Origin: Candidatus Nomurabacteria bacterium
Lineage (GTDB): Bacteria > Patescibacteriota > Minisyncoccia > Phycocordibacterales > UBA9973
Length of the DNA stretch: 64,000 nucleotides
Reading direction: 5' to 3'
NCBI GenBank assembly: GCA_026395965.1
Contig: JAPLXS010000006.1
Location: 118,683-182,682, forward strand
The position numbers and the translations under genes are program-made. Shown one piece after another: positions 3,380-54,176 of this stretch (its first letter is position 1; every line of letters begins with the position of its first letter). The notes beneath the pieces are model-generated. The model searched no databases. It was not told where the DNA came from and saw only the letters and a program-made list of their open reading frames with translations.

Positions 3380-3492
3380 TTATGCAAAAAATTTAAACAA
3401 TATCTTTACCCTTTGTATTTTACACAAAGGGTATTTTTATTTATTAATAAAAAAAGCTATCACATATGTGACAGCTTTTGTTTTAATTAGAC

Positions 3493-4251
3493 TTACTTTT
3501 TTGAATTAAAAAATAATGCAATTTTTTTAATAATGAAAAATCTTGCCTCAGAATAATGTGGGGGTGTATTTTTAAGTGCCTCCATTAATTCAACAACATT
3601 TTTAGCAATTATACCCTCATTCATAGAAATCTTTTCCCATTTTTTAAGAGCTTTAAATTTAGCATTAGAATTTTCCGGTGAAAGTTCGCAAACTTCTTTT
3701 ATTTCTTTGCTATTTTTAGCAACTTCTTCCATTTTCAACAAAATCATTGTTGCAACATAAGAATTTTTGTGAACAGTCCCAAGTAATTTTTTAAGGAGCT
3801 GATAATTTTTTCCAACTTTTAAGAACTGGTCCAAGGAAAGCGCCTCATTTTTTGCTAAAGCCACTTGTTTGGCTTCAGAATTTTGAGGTGATTCTCTTAA
3901 TACCTTTTTAAAATCCTCTTGTGTTTTAATTTTATTCGCTTCTATCAAAGATAGTTCATCCCACTTCTTAAAGGCCAGTGCTTCATAAATAGTACCTACA
4001 GACACATTTTTAAACACTTTTCTTGCTTCTGTAGGACTAGTAACAAAACTTAACCAATCAATAAGTGCTTGTAATCTTTCATCAGAATATGCATCAGCTG
4101 AAAGAAAATTAATTCTTGCTTCGTCTATATTTTTCGGTTTATTACTATTTGCTTTTAGCGGCAAACCTAAAGCGAATTCGATTGTTGGAACAGATATTTT
4201 GGTTACACTAGCCATTTCAGAAATATCTACATTATTCTCATTTGAATCCAT
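3493..4251 (-). CDS. hypothetical protein with internal SPxxSEAK/ARK repeats
   Basis: Repeated ~55-aa modules (TSPTEARKVF, SPQNSEAKQVALAK, SPENSNAKFKALKKW, TPPHYSEARFF). Bidirectional terminator at 3453-3486. Confidence 0.4.
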   Translation of the reverse strand: MDSNENNVDISEMASVTKISVPTIEFALGLPLKANSNKPKNIDEARINFLSADAYSDERLQALIDWLSFVTSPTEARKVFKNVSVGTIYEALAFKKWDELSLIEANKIKTQEDFKKVLRESPQNSEAKQVALAKNEALSLDQFLKVGKNYQLLKKLLGTVHKNSYVATMILLKMEEVAKNSKEIKEVCELSPENSNAKFKALKKWEKISMNEGIIAKNVVELMEALKNTPPHYSEARFFIIKKIALFFNSKK

Positions 4252-4311
4252 ATTATTTAGTTTTTAATTATTTTAATTAAAATAACACTATTTAAGATAA
4301 AAGTCAACTTA

Positions 4312-4349
4312 TAGGGGTCCAACCCCTACGTTAGGGGTTGGACCCCTAA
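4312..4349. repeat. double hairpin taggggtccaaccccta-cg-ttaggggttggaccccta
   Basis: Two inverted copies of the GGGGTCCAACCCC hairpin form a 38-bp perfect palindrome upstream of the 3493..4251 gene. Confidence 0.65.
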
Positions 4350-4393
4350 CAATTTAAAAAACAACCAATGTTATTGGTTGTTTTAATGAAATT

Positions 4394-4695
4394 AATATGA
4401 ATCTGGGTTCAGTCCATATGTATTTATTTGCCATTCTGTAAAAGAGAATCCGCTACCTTCTTGTGGGAGTTCTTCTTCTTTTGGTTGTTCTTTTTTGCTT
4501 ATTTTAGCTTTATTTTTCAAATTTATTACTGCACTTTTAAATGCTGATAATTCATTTGGTTTATAGCCAAAATAGCTACCATACTTCTAAAATAAATTTT
4601 TTAAGATTTTAAGATAAAAAGGCCCCTTTTCTCCTTTTTTTAAAAATGCTTTCTTCTTATGATATCTACTTGAGAGCTCATTAGAAACGTCTGCT
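4394..4695 (-). pseudogene. ORF interrupted by an in-frame TAG (METLADVSNELSSRYHKKKAFLKKGEKGPFYLKILKNLF*KYGSYFGYKPNELSAFKSAV...)
   Basis: A 39-codon ATG-initiated ORF runs in frame through TAG into a 65-codon ORF without its own start. An A7 homopolymer lies inside. Confidence 0.3.
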
Positions 4696-4870
4696 AATGT
4701 TTCCATCTTTATAATATTTAAGGATATATTTGTTTGTATTATAAGACAGATAGGCGATTGTTGTCAATATCTAGTCGAATTTTATAAATTCCTAATCTGT
4801 ACTATTGATTCATTAGAATCATCTATAAGGATAATTTCCTCCCTCACCTCATATATGTTAAAATACGCTT

Positions 4871-6166
4871 ATGAAAAATAGAGCATGGGTTATAGTACTG
4901 GGTGATTTTATTTCATTTATAACAGCATTTATACTCCTTATATTAATCCGTTTTAAGAAAGCAGACTATCTTTCTGCTGTAAATAGCCATACGGTACCAT
5001 TTATAATACTCTATATATCTTGGGTTCTTATTTTCTATATATTTGGGCTCTATGACCTGCTCAACATAAAGCCAACTATTCCATATTTCAATAGATGGAT
5101 ACTAGCTCTTATTTCCTCTTTTACTATGGGTTTGTTATTTTTCTACTTTGTGCCGATCTTTGGTATCAGCCCAAAACTAAATCTCGTAATCCAAGTTGTA
5201 GGGTTTGGATTTTTTTCATTTTTATTGAGAAGAATGGCATACAATCTCTTTGCTAGAGCTATAACTCAACCTGCTATACTTGTCGGTGATTCATCGTATC
5301 TTGCTGAATTAGAGAAAACTATTGCATCCAATCCACAAATAGGTCTCCATGCAATCAACCACTTTAAAACTATCGGTGAAGTAAATCTAAATTTGAAAAA
5401 TATAAAAAATCTTGTCATTATTTTAGATAAAAATATTGAGAATCAAAACCAAAACATTTTAGAATTTTACAAAGAAAATATAGAGATTATTGATACCGCA
5501 AAAGCTTACGAAAAATATTTATATAAAATACCAGTAGAATACATAGATGTATCTTTTATTGTTGAAAATATTAATACAAAAAAAGATGTTTTATACTCAT
5601 TCATAACTTTTTTACTAAATATAGTATTTTCTATAACAATACTTATACTTACTCTTCCTTTCGTGATTATATCTGCCATCTTTATATATCTATATGATTA
5701 CGGTCCAGTATTTTATACACAAAAAAGGGTTGGAATAAATGGTAAAATATTTAAACTCTACAAACTTCGCTCTATGATCACAGACTCTGAAAAAGACGGC
5801 GCAAAGTGGTCCACAGGTACATCGGATACACGTGTGACTCCTGTAGGTAAAATACTTCGTAAGCTACATATAGATGAACTCCCACAAATGATAAATATTC
5901 TAAAAGGTGACCTATCTCTAGTTGGTCCTCGTCCTGAGAGACCAGAATTTGTAAACATACTTGGAAATGATATCCCCTACTACACACTACGCCATATCAT
6001 ACGTCCAGGATTTACTGGCTGGGCTCAGATAAAGTACAGATATGCTGGTTCAACAAAAGATTCCAAAGAAAAGTTTGAATATGATTTGTATTACATTAAA
6101 AATAGAAATATCTTTATGGATTTTGGGATTATAATGAGAACAATACAAATAATATTTACACATTAA
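4871..6166 (+). CDS. polyprenyl-phosphate glycosyl-1-phosphate transferase (WbaP/WsaP-like initiating sugar transferase)
   Basis: N-terminal TM helices and a C-terminal bacterial sugar-transferase domain (KLRSM...DELPQMINILKGDLSLVGPRPERPEF). Confidence 0.85.
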   Translation: MKNRAWVIVLGDFISFITAFILLILIRFKKADYLSAVNSHTVPFIILYISWVLIFYIFGLYDLLNIKPTIPYFNRWILALISSFTMGLLFFYFVPIFGISPKLNLVIQVVGFGFFSFLLRRMAYNLFARAITQPAILVGDSSYLAELEKTIASNPQIGLHAINHFKTIGEVNLNLKNIKNLVIILDKNIENQNQNILEFYKENIEIIDTAKAYEKYLYKIPVEYIDVSFIVENINTKKDVLYSFITFLLNIVFSITILILTLPFVIISAIFIYLYDYGPVFYTQKRVGINGKIFKLYKLRSMITDSEKDGAKWSTGTSDTRVTPVGKILRKLHIDELPQMINILKGDLSLVGPRPERPEFVNILGNDIPYYTLRHIIRPGFTGWAQIKYRYAGSTKDSKEKFEYDLYYIKNRNIFMDFGIIMRTIQIIFTH

Positions 6167-6224: not shown

Positions 6225-6350
6225 ACAGTATTGACACTATGTGCGATAAAAGTATATACTTCATTAGTAACTAGCCATCAGGGACAAATTCCTCTTAGGA
6301 AAAGCGAAAGCTACCTGTATGCGCTGACCGCCCCGTAAGGGGCGGTTTTC
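6225..6350 (+). ncRNA. candidate small RNA / structured 3' UTR
   Basis: Promoter-like TTGACA-17nt-ATATAC at 6231-6259. About 85 nt downstream there is a strong terminator (accgccccgtaaggggcggttttctttt) at 6324-6350. No ORF. Confidence 0.3.
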
Positions 6351-6355
6351 TTTTA

Positions 6356-6901
6356 TTAGTCTGAAATAGTTATTGAAATCTTTTTTGAAACTAGGTGATA
6401 GATATTCTTAATATTTTCATTTGCTGGATTTTCATTATTAAATCTTACAACTCCTGCAACAGCATCAGCTACACGAAGAGCAGGATAACCCTCGTCATTC
6501 CCTGTTTTAAGTTTCTTAACAGATATACCTTTATCTCGTAAAATTTTCTTAAATTTTCTTTCGTAAGTTTTATTCTTTTTTCCATCAATAATTAAATTTG
6601 TAATATTTTTTTCAATAATCAAATGTTCCAAGGCATACTCATATGCTGTATTGCTTTTAAATGGATTCTTTATAAAAGCAATTTTGATAGAAAATTCATA
6701 TTTACATATTTCTTCAATAAATTTTTGCCTAACAGCCCAAGTGCTATGAGACCAGTGGAAGTGTTTAATCTTTAATTTTTTTTCTGTTTCAATAACAGCT
6801 GTTTGAATAATATCTAATTTATTTATTTCAAGATAAACTAAAGCAATTGAAGATTTGCCGTCTTGTTTGTTTATTCCGGATTCATCTATAAAAATATACA
6901 T
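6356..6901 (-). CDS. DUF3800 family protein
   Basis: N-terminal IFIDESG and C-terminal RVADAVAG motifs are characteristic of DUF3800. Confidence 0.5.
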   Translation of the reverse strand: MYIFIDESGINKQDGKSSIALVYLEINKLDIIQTAVIETEKKLKIKHFHWSHSTWAVRQKFIEEICKYEFSIKIAFIKNPFKSNTAYEYALEHLIIEKNITNLIIDGKKNKTYERKFKKILRDKGISVKKLKTGNDEGYPALRVADAVAGVVRFNNENPANENIKNIYHLVSKKISITISD

Positions 6902-17855: not shown

Positions 17856-20070
<2,215 letters not shown>

Positions 20071-20158
20071 CCATAAAGGATGGTTTTTTGTATAAATTTA
20101 AGGTTATATATCCTGGTTTAAACTTTTAGATTAAACCAATCCAACCAACATCTACAGA

Positions 20159-21922
20159 CTAGAAACTAGCTGTAAGTGTAAGTGCTGTAAGACCATTAGT
20201 TATAGATGCGCCAGTTGGAGTTCCTGAAGCTGTTCCATAATTGATTGCAGTAGCAGCAATTGTTGTTGTTGAATTTGATGCACCACGTAGAGCAGCTGCA
20301 AATGTAAATGTGCGAGCTGAACTTGCTGGTATTACATATGAAACGCCTGCTGTATCACCTACCATTGTTGATGGTGCTGATGCAGTTACGTTTGATAATG
20401 CTGTAGCATAACCTGTACCAGAAACTGTCATAAATGTAAGTGGTGTAGCACTTACATACAAGTCGTTGTTACTGTTGTTTGTTAGAGTAAATACATATGT
20501 TGCATTGTATCCAACTGTACTATTACCTTGTACAATTGCTGCACCTAGGGTTGCTGAAGAAGCACTTAGGGCAACTGCGTTTGTAGTTAGAGTAAGAGTA
20601 CTTGCTGTACGAGTACCAGCTGTTAATGTTGCTGTACCATAGTTAGCATCTGTTACAGTAATATTAGCTGCATCAAATGATGTAGCAACTGAAGCAGATC
20701 CTGGAAGTGCCTTTATATCAGCTTTGATAGTAAAGTCTGTCCAAACATCTAATGCTAAAGGAACAGTTAAGTTACTAAATGTAACAACACCTGTACTTGT
20801 ATTTAATGATCCACCTGCAACATCTGTTCCATTTACTATTAATCTAAAATTACTGAAGTCTGTTTTAGTTCCAGCAATTAAAGTAACTGGTAATGTGTTT
20901 AGTGTTGCTGTGTTGTTTGATGCCTTAATACTGAACACACCTAGAGTAGCACCAGCTGTTGTTTGTGTAAGAGAAACAATTTGCTGGCCTGCTAATGGTG
21001 ATGAAGGACTAAGTCTTGAGTATATAACTGCTACAGAACCTGTTGCAGTTAATGTTACTGTATTTTCTCCTGCTGGTGATACTGGATTAATAGTATCAAA
21101 GTAACCAACTTCACTTGTTGTTCTTATTCCATTCAAAGTAGTAGTAACATTTTGAGTTGTTATAATCTTGTCTGTTGCAGAAAGAACTGATGCACTAACA
21201 GCTAAGTCAGGATTTGTTCCTGGAGTAACTGTGTAGTTAAGACCATCAAATCTTACTAGATAGTCAGAACCAACTGTTATTTCTGTTGAATCAGCTGAAC
21301 TTGAAAGAGTCTTTGTTGCAAGAACTTTTCCACTGTTGTCATGAAGTGTAACTGTACTGAAGAACAACCATGGTCTTACAGAGAAGTGTGCATCAACACG
21401 AGAAACCTTAACTGGACCTGCTGTTGCTTGTAATCTTACTGCTGCTACATCTTTAGTTTCACCTTTCTTAATTGAAATAAGAGAAGCAACATATGATGAA
21501 GTTGAAGCTGTAAGTGATCCATCTGTATTACCTGTAGCTACTGTTGTAGCTGTAGTTCCACATGATGCACCTGTTGTTGAACTAAACAAAGCACCTGCTG
21601 TACATCCTGCTACTGTTGTAGTAGTTGTTGTAGTTGTAGTTGTAGTTGTAGTTGAACCTGCGTTTGCTTTAGCCATTGAAGCTTTACCAAACATTCCATC
21701 AGCTGTTAAACCGTTTGCTGCTTGCCAAACTTTAACTTTAGCTGCTGTCATTTTACCGAAAGAACCGTCTGCTGGTGAACCTACAAGAGTCTGAAGAGTC
21801 TTTACGTATTCACCTTTACTACCAACCTTTAGGGTCATAGTACCGAAATCATAAGAAGCGAATGCTGTTGTTGTAACAAGAGCAAATGCAACCAATGTTC
21901 CTACTAAATATTTTTTGAACAT
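20159..21922 (-). CDS. secreted Thr/Ser-rich surface protein with two N-terminal peptidoglycan-binding (PG_binding_1) domains
   Basis: Signal peptide. Two LKVGSKGEYVKTLQ...DGxFG modules, a poly-Thr linker (T13), then ~450 aa rich in T/S/A/G/V. Confidence 0.6.
   Translation of the reverse strand: MFKKYLVGTLVAFALVTTTAFASYDFGTMTLKVGSKGEYVKTLQTLVGSPADGSFGKMTAAKVKVWQAANGLTADGMFGKASMAKANAGSTTTTTTTTTTTTTVAGCTAGALFSSTTGASCGTTATTVATGNTDGSLTASTSSYVASLISIKKGETKDVAAVRLQATAGPVKVSRVDAHFSVRPWLFFSTVTLHDNSGKVLATKTLSSSADSTEITVGSDYLVRFDGLNYTVTPGTNPDLAVSASVLSATDKIITTQNVTTTLNGIRTTSEVGYFDTINPVSPAGENTVTLTATGSVAVIYSRLSPSSPLAGQQIVSLTQTTAGATLGVFSIKASNNTATLNTLPVTLIAGTKTDFSNFRLIVNGTDVAGGSLNTSTGVVTFSNLTVPLALDVWTDFTIKADIKALPGSASVATSFDAANITVTDANYGTATLTAGTRTASTLTLTTNAVALSASSATLGAAIVQGNSTVGYNATYVFTLTNNSNNDLYVSATPLTFMTVSGTGYATALSNVTASAPSTMVGDTAGVSYVIPASSARTFTFAAALRGASNSTTTIAATAINYGTASGTPTGASITNGLTALTLTASF
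21612..21656. repeat. (GTTGTA)n hexanucleotide microsatellite encoding the poly-Thr linker
   Basis: gttgtagtagttgttgtagttgtagttgtagttgtagttg inside 20159..21922. Confidence 0.7.
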
Positions 21923-22026
21923 AATGTTTTTATAATTGTATACACGTTTAAATTAATTTCGACTAATCTCTGGGTACGACTAATAATAATGTACTCAAAG
22001 AAAAAAATTAATGTGTGTGTATTTAA

Positions 22027-22106
22027 TAAGAATTAAGAATTAGGAATTAATAATTAGGAATTGATAAACAACTCAGAATTAATAATTAATAAAAATTAAT
22101 AATTAT
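22027..22106. repeat. (GAATTAR)n heptanucleotide tandem array
   Basis: taagaattaagaattaggaattaataattaggaattga...aattaataattaataaaaattaataatta. Confidence 0.7.
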
Positions 22107-22432
22107 CTTTTACTAATCTCTAAATAACAGAACTCTAGACCATGACCTCTTTCTCTATCAAAAAAAGTTGCAATGGTTTTAAAGAAATAATATTTAGAAT
22201 TGTAAACTAAACTAAATAACTCTGCCTGTCCTTACCCTTCTAAAGAATTTCTTACGAAAGTAAAGAAAAGACGAGACAAGCATATCTGCCTTGTCGACAG
22301 GGCCGATACCACATCTTGAATCGAGTATCGATATAGATTATTCTTTTGCGCTCCTCTATCAAAGCAGCACGAGAATAAAAAATAAAAACAAAAGAAACAA
22401 AACGGATCTGACCAGAGAGAACTCAATTGAGA

Positions 22433-22458
22433 AATTAAGAATTAGGAATTAGGAATCC
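22433..22458. repeat. (GAATTAR)n heptanucleotide array
   Basis: aattaagaattaggaattaggaatcc. Confidence 0.7.
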
Positions 22459-22697
22459 ACAAAGGACCACTAATTAAGAATTCAAAATAAATAATTCCGG
22501 CTACAAGCTATTTGGTATTAACAACTTATAGTATTAAATTTTCAATGATCTTCTCTTCCCAAATGTACTTATATAAAACAAGAACATAGGGATACTATAT
22601 ACTACCACATCTAGCAATAAAATACCAGGGGTAATACACATAAATATTATATATGGAGTCATTTAAATATGCAACATATATGACCCAATTACGGATT

Positions 22698-22724
22698 AAA
22701 AATTAGGAATTAAGAATTAGAAAT
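22698..22724. repeat. (GAATTAR)n heptanucleotide array
   Basis: aaattaggaattaagaattagaaatac. Confidence 0.7.
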
Positions 22725-22826
22725 ACGAGCATACAATGAGGCCGTAGTGGGACTTGAGGGTGATACTCAGCTATACCCCTGTTTTGTGATTACATATGGA
22801 TTAAATATCCACCTAGACATTCATTA

Positions 22827-22866
22827 AAACACTCCCCAGAAAGCTCCGCTTTCTGGGGAGTGTTTT
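22827..22866 (-). terminator. rho-independent terminator of the 22889..23743 gene
   Basis: aaaacactccccagaaagc-ggagctttctggggagtgtttt with a T-tract on the minus strand. Confidence 0.65.
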
Positions 22867-22870
22867 AATG

Positions 22871-22901
22871 ATTCATAATTCATAATTTTTAATTCGTAAT
22901 T
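22871..22901. repeat. heptanucleotide array (AATTAYG variants) overlapping the stop codon of the 22889..23743 gene
   Basis: Minus strand reads aattacgaattaaaaattatgaattatgaatc. The TAA stop and last codons (IITN*) lie inside the array. Confidence 0.6.
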
Positions 22902-23743
22902 ATACTATACCTGCTCCATCTTTTTGCACCTGTCTTTTTGATGTGTCCTTTAGAGATGAGGGTGTTTAATTCGCGTTGAATTGTCTTTTCTGAACAGTTC
23001 GTGAATGCCAGTGATATGTCTTTTATTGAAATTCCCTCTTCACCGATTTGTATGCCTTTCTTATCTTTTATCATGCTCAATATTTTTGCTGTTCGGTCAT
23101 TTCTGTCTGATAGATTTGTCTCATAAGATTTTATTTTTTGAGGATAAGAAAGCGATAAAGGACTCTTGCGATTTGTAAGAGACATTCCATCTAATGATGT
23201 CCCTTTGTTGTTTGAAAATTGCTCTTTATTGTGATTAAAACTATCTACATTTCCGAGAGATATTTCGCTCTCATTTTCCTCTGGCAGATGAAACATTTTG
23301 TCGTCCAATTTGAAAGTAAAATGTTTGTCTTTCTCTTGGCTTGATTTCAAATCAGAAGCTAGTATAGAGAACTCTTTTTTTAGTATTGAAGTATTCATCT
23401 CTGAGATGAAACCTATAGTATGAGCTATCTCTATAAAAGAAAGTAGTTCGTATATGTGAGTTAGTGATACAGAAATATAAGAATGCTTTTCTACTGGAGA
23501 CAATGTAGAGAGCTTATATATATCGGACAGAAGTTCTACACCTAGTAAACGAAGCTTCCCCTTTAGTGCATCGTCTGTGTCCATGCAATCAGAAACCAAA
23601 TACAAAGCTGTCACTAGCTTCTCTGTCTTTTTGTTTGCAAAATGAGAAACATGTATATTTGACAATGATTTTATATCAGAGACATCAGAATGTCCGTATG
23701 TATTTAAGCTTGTCTTTTGTATGTCTTTTTGATTATTTATCAT
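22889..23743 (-). CDS. hypothetical protein with C-terminal winged-helix-like segment
   Basis: The C-terminus (ISIKDISLAFTNCSEKTIQRELNTLISKGHIKKTGAKRWSRYSI) looks like a wHTH. The rest has no recognisable domain. Confidence 0.35.
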   Translation of the reverse strand: MINNQKDIQKTSLNTYGHSDVSDIKSLSNIHVSHFANKKTEKLVTALYLVSDCMDTDDALKGKLRLLGVELLSDIYKLSTLSPVEKHSYISVSLTHIYELLSFIEIAHTIGFISEMNTSILKKEFSILASDLKSSQEKDKHFTFKLDDKMFHLPEENESEISLGNVDSFNHNKEQFSNNKGTSLDGMSLTNRKSPLSLSYPQKIKSYETNLSDRNDRTAKILSMIKDKKGIQIGEEGISIKDISLAFTNCSEKTIQRELNTLISKGHIKKTGAKRWSRYSIITN

Positions 23744-23839
23744 GTCTTTTTAGTATCACTTGATGAGTACTTATGTCTTTAATGTGTCCATTATACACTC
23801 ATTTTTCTTGAGTGCAATAGGAAGAAAAATGAGTGTATA

Positions 23840-23875
23840 AAATTAATAATTAGGAATTAGGAATTAAGAATTGAA
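23840..23875. repeat. (GAATTAR)n heptanucleotide array
   Basis: aaattaataattaggaattaggaattaagaattgaa. Confidence 0.7.
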
Positions 23876-23936
23876 TACAGAAATAATTATAAAATAATTG
23901 AAAATTTGGAATTTTAAATACGAAACACAGGTTCAT

Positions 23937-23986
23937 TTTTTAGACGTCGGATATCTATTAGTAAACAGGTGTCCGACGTCTAAAAT
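23937..23986. repeat. TAGACGTCCGACA-family long palindrome
   Basis: tttagacgtcgga-tatctattagtaaacaggtg-tccgacgtctaaa. Confidence 0.7.
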
Positions 23987-24000
23987 TGAGCTCCTGATCA

Positions 24001-24033
24001 CATTCTTAATTGTTAATTCTTAATTTGTAATTG
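24001..24033. repeat. (GAATTAR)n heptanucleotide array (reverse orientation)
   Basis: cattcttaattgttaattcttaatttgtaattg. Confidence 0.65.
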
Positions 24034-24280
24034 ACCTTAAGTGTGGATAACTTTTACATTAATATAATCCCTAGATGAACAACACCCGAAGCCAATTTTG
24101 ATGTTGGAAGTCTTAAGATTTTAATAGATGGATATGCTATAATGCATACACAAATTGTGATCCAAATTGAGATGGTTTTAAGACAAATTACTGAGTGTTT
24201 TTTAGATTACTAAATTAAATATTATTAACTTAATTAACAAAAGATAGGACCCCACTTACCGAGGAAATATCCCAAGAGAA

Positions 24281-26518
24281 ATGGCAAAAAAAGATAAAGA
24301 AAAAGAAGATGTTGAGAGCACATCCAAACAAGGAAATAGGAAGAATAAAAATATTAAGAAAGTAGAAATGAGAGAAGAGATTCGCATGAGTATTTGGGGT
24401 ATAACTTTTATGTTTCTCGGTCTTTTGATAACCTTATCTGTTTTCAAAATGGCTGGTCCTGTGGGCGATTTTATTTACGATAAATTGAGTGCATTCTTTG
24501 GGCTTGGGTACTTTCTCCTACCTGTACTTCTAGTAGTGATAGGATATTCTTTTTTGAAAAAAGAAAGACCACAAGTTGCAAAAATTCACGCTATCTTTGG
24601 TCTCGCTACACTACTCTCTACACTAGGAATAATGGACCTCGCAGCCAATGGAAAAGAGGCATCGGTCAATATAACTTTTGGTGGGTATCTAGGTAGTATT
24701 GTCGCATGGCCATTCTTGAAACTTTTCGGAGTATATGCAGGGATACTTTTGCTTGGAGCAATACTCATTACCTCTCTTATTATCTTGTGTGACGAGAGAC
24801 CAAACTTGGTAGAACTATTTAAAAAGTTTTGGAGTTTTTTGAAGAGAGATATTCGTACACCAAAAATCGATAATGAAGAAGGGGAAGAAAATTACGAATT
24901 AGAAGAAAATAAAATAGAGACAAAAGAATCAGCAGTAAAAACAAATGTAGTAGAATACGATGAGAACCCCGTAGAAGAAAAACAAGAAGGTCGCGCTTCA
25001 AAGGACACTGCGCGACATGATTCTGCAGAATCAGATATGAAGGTAAAGAAATTTACTACTGACTACATACCTCCCCCAATGTCTCTCTTAGAAAAAGATA
25101 AGGGTAAGCCAAACACAGGAGACATGAAAGGCAACATGAATATAATACAGAGAACTCTCCTCACCTTCGGTGTATCCGTAGAAATGGATGAAGTAACTGT
25201 CGGACCAACTGTTACTCGCTACGCAATGAAACCTGCACAAGGAGTAAAACTCTCACGCATAGTAGGACTTCAAAATGAACTAGCACTAGCACTCTCTGCA
25301 CGTACTATACGTATCGAAGCACCTATCCCTGGAAAGTCACTTGTGGGTATCGAAATACCAAACAAAGTAAAATCTATGGTTGGACTCGCTACACTTCTAT
25401 CTGATGATTTATTCCAAAACTCTGCAAAGCCACTCACTGTCGCACTCGGACGTGGACTATCTGGAAAGTCAGTATTTGGAAACATAGCAAAAATGCCACA
25501 CTTGCTAGTAGCAGGAACAACTGGTTCTGGTAAGTCTGTAACAATACACTCAATCATCACTTCCCTACTCTACAAAAATGGACCAGAAGATTTGAGACTA
25601 ATACTAGTGGATCCAAAAAGAGTAGAACTAACTTTGTATAACAAAATCCCCCACTTACTCACTCCAGTTATTACTGACCCAAAGAAAACAATCTTGGCTC
25701 TAAAGTGGGCAGCAAAAGAAATGGATAGACGCTACGACTTACTCCAAGCTCATTCTGTGCAAAATATAGAATCATACCAATCTAATGTTTATGGAAAAGC
25801 AAAGAAAGATGAGGTTATAGAAAAACTCCCTTATATAGTTATCTTTATCGATGAACTTGCAGATATAATGCAGTCATACCCTAGAGAGCTAGAAAGTGCT
25901 ATCGTTCGTCTTGCTCAGATGTCTCGTGCTGTGGGAATACACTTAATACTATCTACACAGAGACCATCTGTGAATGTCATCACAGGACTAATCAAGGCCA
26001 ATATTCCTACTCGTGTAGCTCTACAGGTGTCATCACAGATAGACTCCCGAACTATTTTAGACCATGGTGGTGCCGAACTACTAGGTGCTGGAGACATGCT
26101 CTACTCTTGTGCAGAAACTCCTCACCCAGAGAGAATACAGAGTGCATTTATATCTGAAGAAGAAGTTAAAAAAGTGGTAGAATACTTACGTAAGGCTTAT
26201 ATAGATGAAATACCTAGTACAATAGAACTATCTGGAAGTATAGATAAAGGAGGAAACAATCTTTTCAATGACAGTATCGGTGGAGATGATGGAGATGATG
26301 ACCTATATGAAGATGCAAGAATGACAGTTATAGAGGCAGGCAAAGCATCTACTTCATACCTACAGAGAAAACTTGGTATCGGATACGCTCGCGCAGCTAA
26401 ACTCATAGATATGCTAGAAGAACGTCATGTAATAGGAGCTGGTAATGGAGCAAAACCAAGAGATGTACTAGAAAAAGGAGTGAATAATACAGATGATATG
26501 ATTATGGGTAAGGAATAA
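24281..26518 (+). CDS. ftsK: DNA translocase FtsK/SpoIIIE
   Basis: N-terminal TM helices, Walker A LLVAGTTGSGKS, and a C-terminal gamma wHTH domain (YLQRKLGIGYARAAKLIDMLEE). Confidence 0.9.
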   Translation: MAKKDKEKEDVESTSKQGNRKNKNIKKVEMREEIRMSIWGITFMFLGLLITLSVFKMAGPVGDFIYDKLSAFFGLGYFLLPVLLVVIGYSFLKKERPQVAKIHAIFGLATLLSTLGIMDLAANGKEASVNITFGGYLGSIVAWPFLKLFGVYAGILLLGAILITSLIILCDERPNLVELFKKFWSFLKRDIRTPKIDNEEGEENYELEENKIETKESAVKTNVVEYDENPVEEKQEGRASKDTARHDSAESDMKVKKFTTDYIPPPMSLLEKDKGKPNTGDMKGNMNIIQRTLLTFGVSVEMDEVTVGPTVTRYAMKPAQGVKLSRIVGLQNELALALSARTIRIEAPIPGKSLVGIEIPNKVKSMVGLATLLSDDLFQNSAKPLTVALGRGLSGKSVFGNIAKMPHLLVAGTTGSGKSVTIHSIITSLLYKNGPEDLRLILVDPKRVELTLYNKIPHLLTPVITDPKKTILALKWAAKEMDRRYDLLQAHSVQNIESYQSNVYGKAKKDEVIEKLPYIVIFIDELADIMQSYPRELESAIVRLAQMSRAVGIHLILSTQRPSVNVITGLIKANIPTRVALQVSSQIDSRTILDHGGAELLGAGDMLYSCAETPHPERIQSAFISEEEVKKVVEYLRKAYIDEIPSTIELSGSIDKGGNNLFNDSIGGDDGDDDLYEDARMTVIEAGKASTSYLQRKLGIGYARAAKLIDMLEERHVIGAGNGAKPRDVLEKGVNNTDDMIMGKE

Positions 26519-26582
26519 TTAGGAATTAGGAATTTAGAAACAATAAGAGGGGTAAAAAATTAGGAATTAAAATACAATAAGA
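26515..26582. repeat. two (GAATTAR)n heptanucleotide arrays abutting the ftsK stop
   Basis: aataattaggaattaggaatttag ... aaattaggaattaaaatac. The ftsK TAA stop lies at the array edge. Confidence 0.65.
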
Positions 26583-27159: not shown

Positions 27160-28242
27160 ATGATAAAAAAAGCAAAAAAGGCTCCAAAAGAAACAGGTGG
27201 TGCAATAGAAGATACAATTAGATCAATCCAAACAAAGTTTGGAGAAGGTGCAATTATGAAACTTGGAGATGCTCCAAAGGTAGACATAGATGTCATTCCT
27301 ACTGGCTCAATAGGGCTAGATATGGCTCTAGGAGTAGGTGGAGTACCAAGAGGCCGTATGATAGAAATATATGGACCGGAATCATCTGGTAAGACTACCC
27401 TAGCACTACACATAGTAGCTGAAGCTCAAAAGAAAGGTGGTGTATGTGCTTATATAGATGCTGAACACGCAATGGATCCAGACTATGCTGCTAAACTAGG
27501 GGTAAACATAAAAGACCTGCTTATATCTCAACCAGACAATGGTGAACAAGGATTAGAGATTACAGAGAGTCTTATTCGCTCTGGCAAGATAGATGTTATC
27601 GTTATCGACTCAGTAGCAGCATTAACACCCAAAGATGAAATAGAGGGAGATATGGGTCAATCACACGTAGGTAAACAAGCACGTCTAATGTCTCAAGCTC
27701 TTAGAAAGCTTACTGCTATAGTTGCCCACTCAAAAACTGTAGTTATATTTATCAACCAGATTCGTATGCAAATAGGAGTCATGTTTGGTAATCCTGAAAC
27801 AACTCCAGGAGGAAAGGCATTGAAGTTTTATACTACTATCCGTCTAGATATTCGCCGTATTGCTCAGATAAAAAAAGGTGAAGAAGTAGTAGGAAGTAGA
27901 ACAAGAGTAAAAGTGGTAAAAAATAAAGTCGCTGCCCCATTTAAACAGACAGAGTTTGATATACTTTACGGTGAAGGAATTTCTCGAGAAGGAGAAATAA
28001 TGGCTCTAGGCGAAAAACTAGGAGTTATCAGTAAATCAAGTGGAGCTATATACACTTATCTTGGAACTGCAAAACAAAAAGAAAAAGGACCGGTAGAAGA
28101 AATAAAACTAGGTCGTGGATATGATGCAGCTCGTACTTTTCTTCGTGGAAACAAAAAACTCTCTGATGAAATACTAAAAGAAGTAAGATTGAGATTTGGA
28201 GAGATACAAAGTACTGGTGGAAGTTCAGGAGATGAAGAATAA
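27160..28242 (+). CDS. recA: recombinase RecA
   Basis: Walker [11 protein letters not shown]1/L2 loops, and full-length RecA conservation. Confidence 0.95.
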
Positions 28243-28277
28243 GAAGAATTAAGAATTTATAATTACGAATTAGGAAT
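28243..28277. repeat. heptanucleotide array immediately after the recA stop
   Basis: gaattaagaatttataattacgaattaggaatac. Confidence 0.65.
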
Positions 28278-29869: not shown

Positions 29870-29912
29870 ATAATTAAGAATTAATAATTAGGAATTAAGA
29901 ATCTAGTGATTA
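29870..29912. repeat. (GAATTAR)n heptanucleotide array in the rplK 5' leader
   Basis: taattaagaattaataattaggaattaagaatctag. Confidence 0.65.
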
Positions 29913-32136: not shown

Positions 32137-32356
32137 ATTTTTTGTGATAGCTCATCAAAGACAAGACATATCTTATTGGTTATTGTTAATAATATTTAGT
32201 GTGACCCATATATTTATTATAGCACGGTCTCTATAAACTAGCTCTCTTGATCTGAGAATCAACTATATTTAACAAATCTATATGATTGAAATCAATATTC
32301 ACATATAAATCTGTGAGTGTTGACAAATATCCATAAAGTGATAGAGTACATAAAAA

Positions 32357-32989
32357 GTGCTCATCAATAACAAAATTAACAGCAAAATGGAAACAGAAAA
32401 ATTAATGCCCAAAAACATTTTAATAGAATTTATTTTCGGTGAAGAGATAATTCGTATTTTAGAAAAAAGAATGCCAATCAGAGAACTCAAAACAGAGTCA
32501 CCTTTATTTATGGACTACTACAAAATGATGCAGCCTAGCCTAATAGAACCATTGGCAAAACAAATTGCTATGAAAATACTTGCAGAAGGTAAAGGAATCG
32601 AGATTATTGCTGGAAGCACATCTCCAATCCTTGCATTTGAAGTTGCATCCATTCTTAGACTTCCATTTTTATGGGTAGTAAATGAAAAAATGCCAGAAGA
32701 GGTTAAGGGTAGAAAAGTTGCTTTTGTAACAGATAATATTTGCACAGGGAAACATACATTCGAGGCCTTGCATTATATTAAACACAATTACGCAAAATGC
32801 GAAGACGTGTATTGCGTTTTTGATTACAATTTCAATCTAAACAAAGGACTAAAAGATATAAACATCTTTTCTCTTCTTGAAATTGAAGATATCAAAGATT
32901 TAGAACAAATAAGTAAATGGAAAGAAAATTCCAGATACTTGTTTGGAAAAGAAAACAGGAAAGAAATCTCTCCTGCGATTGCTGGTTAA
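32357..32989 (+). CDS. phosphoribosyltransferase-like protein (type I PRTase fold)
   Basis: KVAFVTDNICTGKHT resembles the PRPP-binding motif (hydrophobic-D-D/N-x-x-TG-x-T). Confidence 0.35.
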   Translation: MLINNKINSKMETEKLMPKNILIEFIFGEEIIRILEKRMPIRELKTESPLFMDYYKMMQPSLIEPLAKQIAMKILAEGKGIEIIAGSTSPILAFEVASILRLPFLWVVNEKMPEEVKGRKVAFVTDNICTGKHTFEALHYIKHNYAKCEDVYCVFDYNFNLNKGLKDINIFSLLEIEDIKDLEQISKWKENSRYLFGKENRKEISPAIAG

Positions 32990-54145: not shown

Positions 54146-54176
54146 TGCGAATTTTCTAATTCCTAATTCCTAATTT
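54146..54176. repeat. (GAATTAR)n heptanucleotide array overlapping the ComEC stop codon
   Basis: Minus strand reads aaaaattaggaattaggaattagaaaattc. The final ComEC codons R-N-stop are encoded by aggaattag within the array. Confidence 0.65.

What the first reader, a model, noticed from the sequence alone, without database searches (positions are those of the whole stretch)
21923..24280. Unusually large non-coding island (about 1 kb plus 0.5 kb) enclosing a lone wHTH-like gene
The genome is otherwise about 90% coding. Here 966 bp (21923-22888) and 537 bp (23744-24280) lack convincing ORFs. The only candidate is a 64-aa low-complexity ORF that I rejected. Both stretches are packed with heptamer arrays and one long palindrome. 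The enclosed 284-aa protein has only a C-terminal wHTH-like segment. Possibilities are an origin or terminus-like region, a remnant of an integrated element, or a locus encoding unannotated ncRNAs. I could not recognise RNase P, tmRNA, SRP or 6S signatures by eye.
Basis: seen in the sequence. Interest (0 to 1): 0.5.

Follow-up and report, generated by a model that had tools for sequence, protein, structure and literature searches.

The report
Conserved structured leader RNA in Paceibacteria
The "empty" 1-kb gap is the template of a roughly 720-nucleotide, highly structured RNA that matches no catalogued RNA family, is conserved across a whole class of ultra-small (CPR) bacteria, and runs from its own promoter into the gene for a secreted cell-wall-binding protein.

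Summary
Gaps 21923-22888 (966 bp) and 23744-24280 (537 bp) are the largest and third-largest in a window that is about 89% coding. They contain heptamer arrays and palindromes.

The 966-bp gap is not junk, an origin or an element remnant. About 170 related Nomurabacteria/Paceibacteria contigs keep the order: ftsK (divergent), the 284-aa gene, a 0.5-1.2 kb non-coding stretch, then a gene for a signal-peptide plus peptidoglycan-binding protein.

On the window's minus strand the stretch carries:
- a conserved promoter (TTGCAT-17-TATAAT, 22646-22674), usually preceded in relatives by a perfect DnaA box;
- a 5'-terminal hairpin;
- an invariant boxA-like GAUCAUUGAAAA;
- at least eight helices, five of them tested for covariation, the others compensatory in the alignments;
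- 1-7 hairpins with a GAUAGA loop (473 forward versus 1 reverse occurrence);
- a 31-nt invariant hairpin;
- a structured element ending 17 nt before the ATG.

No Rfam family matches. I read it as a new long 5' leader RNA, or possibly a free large ncRNA. The heptamer arrays are fillers present in only some lineages. The 284-aa protein is an Avd-like four-helix bundle fused to a DeoR-type winged helix. The 537-bp gap is a divergent promoter region, and only about 80 bp of it is widely conserved.

The parts
22889..23743 (-). Gene for the 284-aa protein: N-terminal Avd-like / 23S-rRNA-IVS-type four-helix bundle (residues 32-141), disordered linker, C-terminal DeoR-type winged helix (residues 208-281).
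23788..23817 (-). Promoter of the 284-aa gene (TTGCAC-16-TATAAT), followed by the conserved 5'UTR start GGACACATTAAAGAC (23775-23789). One arm of the 23791-23840 palindrome overlaps it.
   Evidence: This is the only widely conserved part of the 537-bp spacer. It has the same architecture as P1.
22821..22871 (.). Perfect 24-bp-arm hairpin directly after the 284-aa gene. It looks like a terminator on both strands.
   Evidence: (I6). Relatives carry different GC-rich hairpins at the same place.
22646..22674 (-). Promoter P1: -35 TTGCAT (22669-22674), 17-nt spacer, -10 TATAAT (22646-22651). The predicted start is about 22639.
   Evidence: The consensus ATTGCATATTT-N17/18-GTATATAAT was recognised in 113 loci, with core positions at least 90% conserved. 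In relatives a perfect DnaA box lies 6-29 nt upstream. That box is lost in the window.
22597..22639 (-). Branched hairpin at the 5' end of the RNA, beginning at the predicted +1.
   Evidence: 14 pairs, 8 with compensatory changes, many G-U pairs.
22557..22592 (-). Hairpin 2 (CCC...GGG stem, variable top). It sits where boxB sits in an rRNA leader.
   Evidence: Stems differ between relatives but stay complementary, by reading the alignment. It also appears in the single-sequence fold. No pair statistics were run on it.
22539..22550 (-). Invariant GAUCAUUGAAAA (boxA-like), followed by UUUAAUAC.
   Evidence: Identical in 27 of 27 aligned sequences. Exactly one copy is present in 149 of 171 held loci. 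It may pair with UUUUCAUUGGUC about 110 nt downstream.
22501..22531 (-). Hairpin 3, with the conserved loop UUAAUACCAA.
   Evidence: 11 pairs, 10 with compensatory changes, 95.6% paired.
22398..22417 (-). Conserved CUCUGGUCAGAUCC plus the 5' strand (CGUUUUG) of the helix that closes the multi-hairpin domain.
   Evidence: Partner strands co-vary, for example CAUUUAG/CUAAAUG and CAUUUCG/CGAAGUG.
22340..22376 (-). GAUAGA-loop hairpin, copy 1 (loop motif at 22354-22360).
22280..22318 (-). 3' strand of the closing helix (22312-22318), then the invariant hairpin GGUAUCGGCCCUGUCGACAAGGCAGAUAUGC (22280-22310).
   Evidence: No substitution in 26 aligned sequences. The 22-mer was found exactly in 112 metagenome contigs, once in each, and is unique in the window.
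22224..22281 (-). Hairpin of variable length that follows the invariant block.
   Evidence: Stem sequences differ but stay complementary across relatives, by reading the alignment. It is also present in the fold. No pair statistics were run on it.
22192..22212 (-). Conserved stretch GUUUAGUUUACAAUUCUAAAU.
22141..22175 (-). GAUAGA-loop hairpin, copy 2 (loop motif at 22153-22159).
22107..22127 (-). Conserved stretch UUAUUUAGAGAUUAGUAAAAG.
21940..22022 (-). Structured element next to the start codon: outer helix AUACAC/GUGUAU, helix AUUAAUUUU/GAAAUUAAU, an inner hairpin, and two UUAGUCG repeats. It ends 17 nt before the ATG at 21922.
   Evidence: 18 pairs, 10 compensatory, 93.5% paired against 31-46% when the partners are slid.
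20159..21922 (-). Downstream gene: 587 aa with a signal peptide, a PG_binding_1 domain, a Thr-rich linker and a long Thr/Ser/Ala-rich C-terminal body that matched no Pfam family. It is the likely cargo of the leader.
   Evidence: Pfam PF01471. PDB hits cover only the PG-binding domain. In 65 of 72 metagenome loci the next ORF lies on the same strand. In the 11 most divergent loci, where the translation was read, it encodes a signal-peptide plus PG-binding protein of 630-1216 aa.
20061..20089 (-). Intrinsic terminator after the 587-aa gene (CCAUCC-UUUAU-GGGUGG followed by a U run). The unit therefore appears monocistronic.
   Evidence: Read directly from the sequence. The scan tool did not list it. 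Terminator-like hairpins occur at the equivalent place in relatives.
22027..22100 (+). Heptamer array (AATTARR units as read on the + strand). It falls in a variable linker between the multi-hairpin domain and the start-codon-proximal element.
   Evidence: This part of the alignment is variable in relatives.
22433..22456 (+). Heptamer array in the variable linker between hairpin 3 and the multi-hairpin domain.
   Evidence: Present in L003, L006, L022, L031 and L030. The whole segment is absent in L002, L010, L013, L016 and L023.
22687..22724 (+). Heptamer array just upstream of P1, at the place where relatives carry the DnaA box.
22871..22901 (-). Heptamer array overlapping the stop codon of the 284-aa gene.
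   Evidence: Relatives have other stop-rich heptamers here, such as TAGTGAT and TAAGAAT.
23841..24032 (.). Two inverted heptamer arrays (23841-23877 and 24002-24032) bracketing a long hairpin (23938-23985). Close relatives share them; the wider family does not.
   Evidence: (I4, I15).
24042..24050 (-). The only perfect DnaA box (TTATCCACA) in the window. It lies in the ftsK / 284-aa-gene spacer.
   Evidence: Twenty-seven relatives also have a perfect box in this spacer.
24138..24143 (+). Conserved TATAAT, the likely -10 element of the ftsK promoter.
   Evidence: The block TGTATGCATTATATCAC is conserved in six relatives.

Best explanation
The 966-bp gap is the template of one long, highly structured RNA on the minus strand.

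Transcription starts at a strong, conserved sigma-70-type promoter (P1, 22646-22674) about 215 bp after the 284-aa gene. It runs about 717 nt without a recognisable terminator to the ATG at 21922 of a monocistronic gene. That gene encodes a secreted protein with a peptidoglycan-binding domain and ends at the terminator at 20061-20089.

I read the RNA as a long 5' leader with several tasks.
1. A hairpin at +1 protects the 5' end.
2. The invariant GAUCAUUGAAAA, placed as boxA is in rRNA leaders (after a hairpin, near the promoter), recruits Nus factors so that about 0.7 kb of untranslated RNA escapes Rho.
3. A closed domain displays two (in relatives 1-7) hairpins with a GAUAGA loop, next to a 31-nt invariant hairpin. 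Together they form a multivalent docking site for a protein not yet identified.
4. A structured element ending 17 nt before the ATG sets translation or stability.

In most relatives a DnaA box next to P1 ties expression to DnaA. The neighbouring Avd-like/DeoR-wHTH protein, whose recognition helix is as invariant as the RNA, is the obvious candidate regulator of the unit.

What is shown: conservation, base-pairing with covariation, the strand, the promoter consensus and the synteny. What is inferred: the transcript ends, boxA function, protein binding, the DnaA link and the role of the neighbouring protein.

The heptamer arrays are AT-rich, stop-codon-rich fillers in variable linkers and are found in only some lineages. 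The 537-bp gap is a divergent promoter region with similar filler.
For: Conservation:
- blastn and MAFFT of the gap against 58 genome loci show conserved blocks from q207 to q966 (q counts from the 284-aa gene's stop at window 22888 downstream on the minus strand; window coordinate = 22889 - q). Forty-nucleotide stretches are 100% identical in loci where the flanking protein is only 52-53% identical.
- The 22-mer occurs exactly, once each, in 112 metagenome contigs. All 75 contigs with enough upstream sequence carry the 284-aa gene.
- In 65 of 72 the next ORF is on the same strand. In the 11 most divergent loci it encodes a signal-peptide plus PG-binding protein of 630-1216 aa.

Not coding: six-frame peptides from the conserved block hit relatives in all frames on both strands.

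Structure:
- A3: 25 pairs, 93.3% paired, covariation 0.607 against 0.313 shuffled (0 of 500 shuffles reach it), and 31-50% paired when partners are slid.
- A2: 18 pairs, 93.5% paired, 0.369 against 0.235.
- GAUAGA hairpins: 0.419 against 0.233.
- The closing helix co-varies.

Strand:
- GATAGAG occurs 473 times forward and once in reverse inside the locus, against 63 and 68 outside it.
- G-U pairs are abundant.
- The minus strand folds to -177.9 kcal/mol (z -7.9). The plus strand folds to -126.6 kcal/mol (z -4.7).

Promoter: TTGCAT-17/18-TATAAT recognised in 113 loci, with the hairpin starting at +1. The neighbouring gene's promoter has the same design.

No consistent intrinsic terminator lies between P1 and the ORF in 131 loci. 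A terminator follows the ORF.

DnaA box: 172 perfect boxes in 1.09 Mb against about 14 expected, and 94 of them lie just upstream of P1.

Long untranslated RNAs are Rho substrates, and BoxA protects them (PMC7665894).
Against: - There are no transcript data, so the 5' and 3' ends are inferred. A terminator of unusual type, or RNA processing, could release a free RNA.
- The boxA reading rests on resemblance (10 of 12 positions to the Firmicute rRNA boxA GUUCUUUGAAAA, recalled from memory). It could not be checked against an rRNA leader from this clade, because no rRNA gene lies in any held sequence. The motif may instead be one strand of a long-range helix.
- Rho and NusB were not checked in this genome.
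- A 31-nt block with no substitution at all is unusual for a mere leader. It is also an imperfect DNA palindrome and could be an operator.
- The four-helix-bundle domain of the neighbouring protein is not basic (pI 6.6). This speaks against Avd-style RNA binding by that domain.
- A weak promoter-like match (TCGAAA-16-TACAAT, 21935-21962) lies inside the last element, so a second start cannot be excluded.
Confidence: 0.55

Rival explanations
1. The RNA, or its 5' 0.5-0.6 kb, is a free, trans-acting large structured non-coding RNA. It would form a particle with one or more proteins, possibly the co-located Avd-like/wHTH protein. Only the last ~80-nt element would belong to the mRNA of the downstream gene.
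For: - The sequence invariance is at the level of rRNA or SRP RNA: 31 nt unchanged while the neighbouring protein drops to 22% identity.
- A modular domain carries 1-7 identical-loop hairpins, as in protein-sponge RNAs.
- The strong promoter and the 5' hairpin fit a stable RNA.
- The 284-aa gene is always adjacent (75 of 75).
- The loop of the invariant hairpin is self-complementary (GUCGAC), which would allow dimerisation. This last point is inference.
Against: - No conserved terminator or obvious 3' end lies before the ORF.
- The RNA is always followed, on the same strand, by the same class of gene, even where that protein has diverged beyond BLAST detection.
- The last structured element needs an upstream start, and no conserved promoter precedes it.
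- The four-helix bundle is not basic.
Confidence: 0.27
2. The key conserved blocks act as DNA, not RNA. The invariant imperfect palindrome TATCGGCCCTG-TCGA-CAAGGCAGATA would be the operator of the neighbouring DeoR-type wHTH protein. The DnaA boxes would mark a replication-linked control region or even the origin.
For: - The palindrome has 11-bp half-sites that match at 9 of 11 positions (I20, 35).
- The wHTH recognition helix is as invariant as the site, and the wHTH domain is basic (pI 9.8).
- Perfect DnaA boxes are enriched 12-fold and are position-specific.
- ftsK is adjacent.
Against: - Helices on both sides of the block co-vary as RNA.
- The strand asymmetry of GATAGAG (473 to 1) and the G-U pairs are RNA signatures.
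- There is one DnaA box per promoter, not a cluster. Boxes with at most 1 mismatch are not enriched in the window.
- There is no lasting skew switch and no dnaA in 64 kb.
- An operator role for the palindrome is not excluded and could coexist with the RNA.
Confidence: 0.1
3. The island is debris of a mobile or integrated element (for example MITE-like units bounded by inverted heptamer arrays) and has no function of its own.
For: - Inverted arrays bracket 125-145-bp hairpin-containing segments at 22687-22901 and 23841-24032 (I1, I4).
- Relatives carry REP-like GAGGTCCAAC palindromes at these places.
- The arrays vary between lineages.
Against: - This could explain only the filler. The core RNA, the promoter and the synteny are conserved in about 170 contigs.
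- The two bracketed segments are unrelated in sequence.
- No transposase or integrase is present.
- The motif gave no viral hit.
Confidence: 0.04
4. The gap hides small protein genes, for example the 42-aa hydrophobic ORF 22534-22662 (-) or the 64-aa ORF 22232-22426 (-).
For: Both ORFs exist on the transcribed strand. The 42-aa ORF gives weak matches in 8 relatives.
Against: - Other frames and the opposite strand of the same blocks match just as many relatives.
- The 42-aa ORF overlaps P1 and the co-varying 5' hairpins.
- No frame is preferentially preserved.
Confidence: 0.03

Closest known systems
rRNA operon leader with boxB-boxA-boxC (Nus-factor antitermination); also BoxA leaders of CRISPR arrays (PMC7665894)
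   Same: Both have a strong promoter, then a hairpin, then a short invariant single-stranded motif resembling boxA (GAUCAUUGAAAA against the Firmicute GUUCUUUGAAAA). A long untranslated transcript follows and would otherwise be a Rho target.
   Different: No rRNA or CRISPR array follows. The motif differs at 2 of 12 positions from the version I recall. It may be base-paired. The rRNA boxA of this clade could not be compared.
Long stabilising 5' UTRs of S-layer and major surface-protein genes (Lactobacillus slpA and similar; from my own knowledge)
   Same: Both are monocistronic units with a strong promoter, a hairpin at the 5' end, a strong terminator and a secreted wall-anchored protein.
   Different: Those leaders are about 100-200 nt and are not conserved beyond a genus. 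This one is 0.5-1.1 kb and is conserved across a class, with invariant blocks and repeated loop motifs. That the 587-aa protein is an S-layer protein has not been shown.
CsrB/RsmZ-type RNAs and CsrA-bound leaders
   Same: Both carry several hairpins presenting the same short loop motif, in variable copy number. This suggests multivalent binding of one protein.
   Different: The loop is GAUAGA, not GGA. No csrA link is known. The hairpins here sit in a closed domain of a longer RNA.
Large structured bacterial ncRNAs (OLE, GOLLD, ROOL, raiA motif)
   Same: Similar size class (0.5-0.7 kb), many co-varying helices interspersed with invariant nucleotides, restriction to one lineage, and unknown biochemistry.
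   Different: No Rfam model matches. This RNA is fixed immediately upstream of one gene class, which suggests a cis role.
Avd (accessory variability determinant of diversity-generating retroelements) and 23S-rRNA-intervening-sequence four-helix-bundle proteins (PF05635)
   Different: There is no reverse transcriptase and no template/variable repeat pair nearby. The domain is not basic (pI 6.6). It is fused to a DeoR-type wHTH, which Avd lacks.
Bacterial oriC
   Same: A perfect DnaA box, AT-rich repeats, a large non-coding region and divergent genes at 23.7/24.3 kb.
   Different: There is a single box rather than a cluster. No dnaA or dnaN is nearby, and no lasting skew switch is seen. The conserved content is a transcribed structured RNA.

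Membership tests
Any Rfam 15 family (including RNase P, tmRNA, SRP, 6S, OLE, GOLLD, ROOL, raiA, riboswitches) | Covariance-model score at or above the family's gathering threshold. | tested here: not met
   The whole window gave only DUF3800-II at 6267-6329. The island at E up to 10 gave only microRNA or snoRNA hairpin noise. Sixteen relatives at gathering threshold gave 0 hits. Seven relatives at E up to 1 gave nothing inside the locus. ARAGORN found no tRNA or tmRNA.
BoxA / Nus-factor antitermination leader | A motif matching the boxA consensus of the organism's own rRNA leader. | not testable with these tools
   No rRNA gene lies in the window or in the 1.18 Mb of held loci. PMC7665894 uses exactly this comparison as the test.
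BoxA / Nus-factor antitermination leader | A short conserved motif close to the promoter, after a hairpin, in a long untranslated transcript. | tested here: met
   GAUCAUUGAAAA is invariant, single-copy, and 70-130 nt (mode 91-96) after the -10 element, following hairpin 2. The untranslated length is about 717 nt.
BoxA / Nus-factor antitermination leader | Sequence similarity to known boxA. | tested here: inconclusive
   10 of 12 positions match GUUCUUUGAAAA (the Firmicute form, from memory). The match to E. coli GCUCUUUAACAA is poorer. No model was available to score it.
Replication origin (oriC) | A cluster of several DnaA boxes. | tested here: not met
   The island has one perfect and one 1-mismatch box. 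The window has 11 boxes with at most 1 mismatch against 22 expected. Relatives have single boxes at two fixed places.
Replication origin (oriC) | A GC-skew sign change or cumulative minimum at the site. | tested here: not met
   There is a local minimum near 20 kb, but the skew turns negative again from 30 kb. The window minimum is at 64 kb, and the profile tracks gene orientation. The full contig was not available.
Replication origin (oriC) | Adjacency to dnaA or dnaN. | tested here: not met
   No ORF in the window carries the DnaA signature. This was a motif search only.
CsrB/Rsm sponge RNAs | Repeated GGA / ANGGA loop motifs. | tested here: not met
   The loops are GAUAGA, closed by a U-G pair.
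Avd / PF05635 four-helix-bundle proteins | Four-helix-bundle fold matching solved members. | tested here: met
Avd / PF05635 four-helix-bundle proteins | Pfam sequence match. | tested here: not met
   Only 1 of 25 members matches, at E = 0.0078 and below the family cut-off. The window protein has no hit.
Diversity-generating retroelement | A reverse transcriptase plus a template/variable repeat pair. | tested here: not met
   No direct repeat links the gap to the downstream gene. No RT-like ORF lies in the conserved neighbourhood. No dedicated RT search was run.
DeoR-type winged helix-turn-helix | Pfam PF08220 match and the wHTH fold. | tested here: met
   PF08220 matches 15 of 25 members, best E = 8.7e-6. 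The model shows H-H-H-beta-beta at residues 208-281. The window protein itself reaches only RPA_C and HTH_36 weakly.
MITE or integrated element | Several related copies, terminal repeats, and absence from relatives. | tested here: not met
   The bracketed segments are unrelated to each other. The locus is present in all relatives. The motif gave no viral hit.
dif (XerCD) site | A 28-bp site with two 11-bp arms that form an inverted repeat at their inner ends. | tested here: not met
   By hand, window 22180-22207 matches the B. subtilis dif (recalled from memory) at 8 of 11 positions in the XerD arm. It matches at only 4 of 11 in the XerC arm, and the inner ends are not symmetric.

The most novel reading that the evidence does not exclude
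A previously undescribed class of large structured RNA (about 0.5-0.7 kb) that is universal in Paceibacteria (CPR). It would be expressed from a DnaA-box-linked promoter next to ftsK. It would work as a ribonucleoprotein: its array of GAUAGA-loop hairpins and its invariant hairpin with a self-complementary loop would bind, and perhaps oligomerise with, the co-conserved Avd-like/wHTH protein or another core factor. This would couple envelope-protein production to the cell cycle.
Probability: 0.3. Interest if true: 0.85.

Novelty: new variant of a known kind. Interest (0 to 1): 0.62.

Why it matters
CPR bacteria have tiny genomes with little room for non-coding DNA. Yet this lineage keeps 0.5-1.2 kb of untranslated, intricately folded RNA at one fixed locus, and parts of it are more conserved than any neighbouring protein. 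Few large structured RNAs are known in bacteria, and each one found has opened new biochemistry.

This one comes with testable handles: a defined promoter, a candidate antitermination signal, a repeated loop motif, an invariant hairpin, and a co-conserved DNA/RNA-binding protein of unknown function with an Avd-like fold. It is likely to control the main wall-anchored surface protein of organisms that live attached to other cells. It also gives annotators a family to model, so that this "gap" is no longer left blank in hundreds of genomes.

Tried and rejected
- **Rfam and ARAGORN.** Rfam at gathering and at permissive thresholds, on the window and on 23 relatives, found nothing in the locus.
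- **SRP RNA.** CUGGUCAGAUCC and ACAAGGCAGAU recall the two strands of 4.5S domain IV. The GNRA loop and the AGCAGC strand are missing, 70-250 nt intervene, and no model hit was found.
- **RNase P and tmRNA.** ACAGGGCCGAUA on the plus strand resembles the RNase P P4 region, and UUGUCGACAGGG on the plus strand resembles the tmRNA 5' motif. Both are on the wrong strand, lack a partner strand and have no model hit.
- **A second promoter ("P2").** The candidate (CTGGTA...TGGTAGTAT) is instead the co-varying 5' hairpin.
- **TTGATAGAG as a promoter element.** Read as a -35 or an extended -10 element, it lacks the final T of the hexamer, and its flanks co-vary as stems.
- **DGR.** No template/variable repeat and no RT were found.
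- **dif site.** The hand comparison failed.
- **Hidden small ORFs.** Rejected by the six-frame test.
- **Literature.** Searches for CPR structured RNAs and for the loop motif returned nothing relevant.
- **Viral contigs.** A scan for the invariant motif gave 0 hits.
- **Internal terminators.** My own scan for terminators inside the leader found no consistent site.
- **Heptamer arrays versus gene ends.** My period-7 scan across loci was too strict to be informative: 92 arrays, 3 of them inside ORFs and 13 at or just after stop codons.

Full report
**Observation.** The window is an AT-rich (about 31% GC) stretch of a Candidatus Nomurabacteria (Paceibacterota, CPR) genome. ORF listings show no ORF of 100 aa or more in 21923-22888 (966 bp) or 23744-24280 (537 bp). 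These are the largest and third-largest gaps in a window that is about 89% coding.

The heptamer arrays are real. RAATTARRAATTA occurs 13 times against 0.39 expected, and 9 of the 13 fall in the island (arrays). So are the palindromes: 22821-22871 has perfect 24-nt arms, and 23791-23840 and 23938-23985 are shorter. Rfam and ARAGORN find nothing in the island.

**The gap is conserved.** The 284-aa protein has 1826 homologs, all from Nomurabacteria/Paceibacterota. A genome scan returned 58 loci. Nearly all have the same order:
- ftsK, divergent;
- the 284-aa gene;
- a 0.5-1.2 kb stretch without long ORFs;
- a gene of about 600-1100 aa on the same strand.

blastn of the window's 966-bp gap against these loci shows DNA conservation over q207-966, where q counts from the 284-aa gene's stop (window 22888) downstream on the minus strand (window coordinate = 22889 - q). 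Some blocks are 100% identical over 40 nt in genomes whose flanking protein is only 52-53% identical (alignments). Six-frame peptides from the best block hit relatives equally in all frames and on both strands, so the conservation is not protein-coding.

An exact scan of metagenome contigs for the invariant 22-mer found 112 contigs with one copy each.
- All 75 contigs with at least 1.5 kb upstream carry the 284-aa gene, down to 22% identity.
- 61 of 73 show a detectable homolog of the downstream protein.
- In 65 of 72 the next ORF lies on the same strand.
- In the 11 most divergent loci, where I read the translation, that ORF encodes a protein with a signal peptide and a PG-binding motif, 630-1216 aa.

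**Anatomy on the minus strand (coordinates).**
1. *Promoter P1.* TTGCAT-17-TATAAT at 22646-22674. The consensus ATTGCATATTT-N17/18-GTATATAAT was recognised in 113 loci. The 284-aa gene's own promoter has the same design.
2. *5' hairpin.* A branched hairpin at 22597-22639 begins at the predicted +1.
3. *Hairpin 2* at 22557-22592.
4. *Invariant GAUCAUUGAAAA* at 22539-22550.
5. *Hairpin 3* at 22501-22531, with the loop UUAAUACCAA.
6. *Variable linker*, which in this genome and some relatives holds a heptamer array.
7. *Closed domain.* CUCUGGUCAGAUCC and a helix (CGUUUUG/CAAGAUG) close a domain that contains hairpins with a GAUAGA loop.
8. *Invariant hairpin* GGUAUCGGCCCUGUCGACAAGGCAGAUAUGC at 22280-22310.
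9. *Variable hairpin, two conserved stretches and a second GAUAGA hairpin.*
10. *A second array-filled linker.*
11. *Start-proximal element.* An 83-nt structured element at 21940-22022 ends 17 nt before the ATG.

**Evidence that this is RNA, and on which strand.** RNAalifold and explicit pair counts give the following.
- Modules 2 and 5: 25 pairs, 18 with compensatory changes, 93.3% paired. The covariation score is 0.607 against 0.313 in shuffles (0 of 500 reach it), and only 31-50% are paired when partners are slid.
- Module 11: 18 pairs, 10 compensatory, 93.5% paired, 0.369 against 0.235.
- GAUAGA hairpins, from an ungapped alignment of 100 instances: 0.419 against 0.233, with the maximum at slide 0.
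- The closing helix co-varies, for example CAUUUAG/CUAAAUG, CAUUUCG/CGAAGUG and CACUUUUAGU/AUUAGAAGUG.

Hairpin 2 and the variable hairpin after the invariant block were judged only by reading the alignments; no pair statistics were run on them.

GATAGAG occurs 473 times in the gene orientation and once in reverse within the locus (173 kb pooled). Outside it the counts are 63 and 68 in 918 kb. Copy number is 1-7 per locus, and the window has two. G-U pairs are frequent. The window's minus strand folds to -177.9 kcal/mol (z -7.9) and the plus strand to -126.6 kcal/mol (z -4.7). The single-sequence fold reproduces the comparative helices.

**Transcript extent (inferred).** I found no consistent intrinsic terminator between P1 and the ORF in 131 loci. 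The last element is base-paired to within 17 nt of the ATG, and no conserved promoter precedes it. An intrinsic terminator follows the 587-aa gene at 20061-20089, and the next gene has its own TGTATAAT. Terminator-like hairpins lie at the same place in relatives. This suggests a monocistronic unit of about 2.6 kb with a 5' leader of about 717 nt.

**Likely mechanism.** What is shown is a conserved promoter, a conserved multi-domain RNA structure, and obligatory linkage to a gene for a secreted PG-binding protein. The rest is inferred.
- The +1 hairpin stabilises the transcript.
- GAUCAUUGAAAA sits after a hairpin near the promoter, like boxA in rRNA leaders. It matches 10 of 12 positions of the Firmicute form as I recall it. 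It may recruit Nus factors to protect 0.7 kb of untranslated RNA from Rho, as shown for rRNA and CRISPR leaders (PMC7665894).
- The GAUAGA hairpins and the invariant hairpin form a multivalent protein-binding platform.
- The element next to the ATG tunes translation or stability.

The boxA assignment could not be tested, because no rRNA leader from this clade is in any held sequence. RNAalifold also pairs the motif with UUUUCAUUGGUC.

**DnaA boxes and the origin idea.** Across 156 loci (1.09 Mb) there are 172 perfect TTATCCACA boxes against about 14 expected. Ninety-four lie just upstream of P1, 6-29 nt from the -35 element. Twenty-seven lie in the ftsK / 284-aa-gene spacer.

The window has lost the P1 box (close relatives retain TTATCCC). 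It keeps one perfect box at 24042-24050. This pattern of one box per promoter fits DnaA acting as a regulator, not an origin. Boxes with at most 1 mismatch are not enriched in the window (11 against 22 expected). The skew follows gene orientation without a lasting switch, and no dnaA-like ORF is present.

No template/variable repeat is present, so this is not a DGR. The bundle is near neutral (pI 6.6) and the wHTH is basic (pI 9.8). The recognition helix SEKTIQREL and the wing KRWxRY persist at 22-25% overall identity. The protein therefore probably recognises an equally invariant nucleic-acid target. The invariant block, which is also an imperfect DNA palindrome, is a candidate. This is untested.

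**The 537-bp spacer.** Only about 80 bp next to the 284-aa gene (its promoter and 5'UTR start) is widely conserved. A TATAAT at 24138-24143 upstream of ftsK is also conserved in six relatives. The two inverted arrays, the 23938-23985 hairpin and the DnaA box are shared with close relatives only (L016, L150). At the same place those relatives carry REP-like GAGGTCCAAC palindromes.

**Heptamer arrays.** They lie in variable linkers and next to promoters or terminators. They are present in some relatives and absent in others at the same position. Elsewhere in the window they sit at or after stop codons. Each unit carries TAG or TAA, and TAA on the other strand, so an array stops all six frames. 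Their function is unknown, and I treat them as filler that varies between lineages.

**Comparison and novelty.** No Rfam 15 model matches the window or 23 relatives, and my limited literature searches found no description. The nearest analogues are functional only: rRNA/CRISPR BoxA leaders, stabilising leaders of S-layer genes, CsrB-like multi-hairpin RNAs, and large structured ncRNAs such as OLE, ROOL and raiA.

I rate it a new variant of a known kind, namely a long structured leader or large ncRNA. About 0.9 confidence that a conserved structured minus-strand RNA is encoded here, 0.55 that it is the leader of the downstream gene, and about 0.3 that it acts as an autonomous RNP-forming RNA.

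Noticed in passing
window 6267-6329 (+): The only Rfam hit in the window: DUF3800-II RNA (RF02961, 49 bits; gathering threshold 43.2). It lies next to ORF 6356-6901 (-), which begins MYIFIDESG and looks DUF3800-like (I judged this from memory of the family).
   Followed up: no
window 26517-26537, 28244-28277, 29872-29899, 54155-54175: AATTARR heptamer arrays outside the island. Three sit exactly at or just after stop codons, in the sense orientation of the gene (ftsK; ORF 27160-28242; ORF 54156-55460). Every unit carries TAG or TAA, and TAA on the other strand, so an array stops all six frames. Relatives use other stop-rich heptamers (TAGTGAT, TAAGAAT) after the 284-aa gene.
   Followed up: partly
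window 20041-20089 (-): An intrinsic terminator (20061-20089) after the 587-aa gene, followed by a TGTATAAT -10 element (within 20041-20050). The GTG start at 20070 listed for ORF 17953-20070 lies inside the terminator, so that gene's real start is probably a downstream ATG.
   Followed up: partly
L016 about 3391-4003 and 4829-5000; L150; L019: Relatives carry short REP-like palindromes (GAGGTCCAAC...GTTGGACCTC), several per intergenic region. They are often bracketed by heptamer arrays, at the places where the window has other hairpins.
   Followed up: no
window 24042-24050 and 24138-24143: A perfect DnaA box about 90 bp upstream of a conserved TATAAT that probably serves ftsK. Twenty-seven relatives also keep a perfect box in this spacer, which suggests DnaA also regulates ftsK or the 284-aa gene.
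   Followed up: partly
window 43857-49493 (-): A giant 1878-aa ORF built largely from 51-bp (17-aa) tandem repeats. TRF reports arrays of up to 17 copies with periods of 51, 102 and 153 bp.
   Followed up: no
window 4252-4870: The second-largest gap without long ORFs (619 bp). It has no Rfam hit at gathering threshold and was not examined further.
   Followed up: no
window 32310-32356 (+): A near-consensus promoter, TTGACA-17-TAGAGT (with TGATAGAGT), a short distance upstream of ORF 32357-32989. This is a chance occurrence of TGATAGAG outside the RNA locus and has no hairpin context.
   Followed up: partly
window 22646-22674 and 23788-23817; loci L002-L171: The clade's promoter consensus appears to be TTGCA-N16/17-(G)TATATAAT. 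It is seen both at P1 and at the 284-aa gene across relatives and could help annotate transcription units in Paceibacteria.
   Followed up: partly
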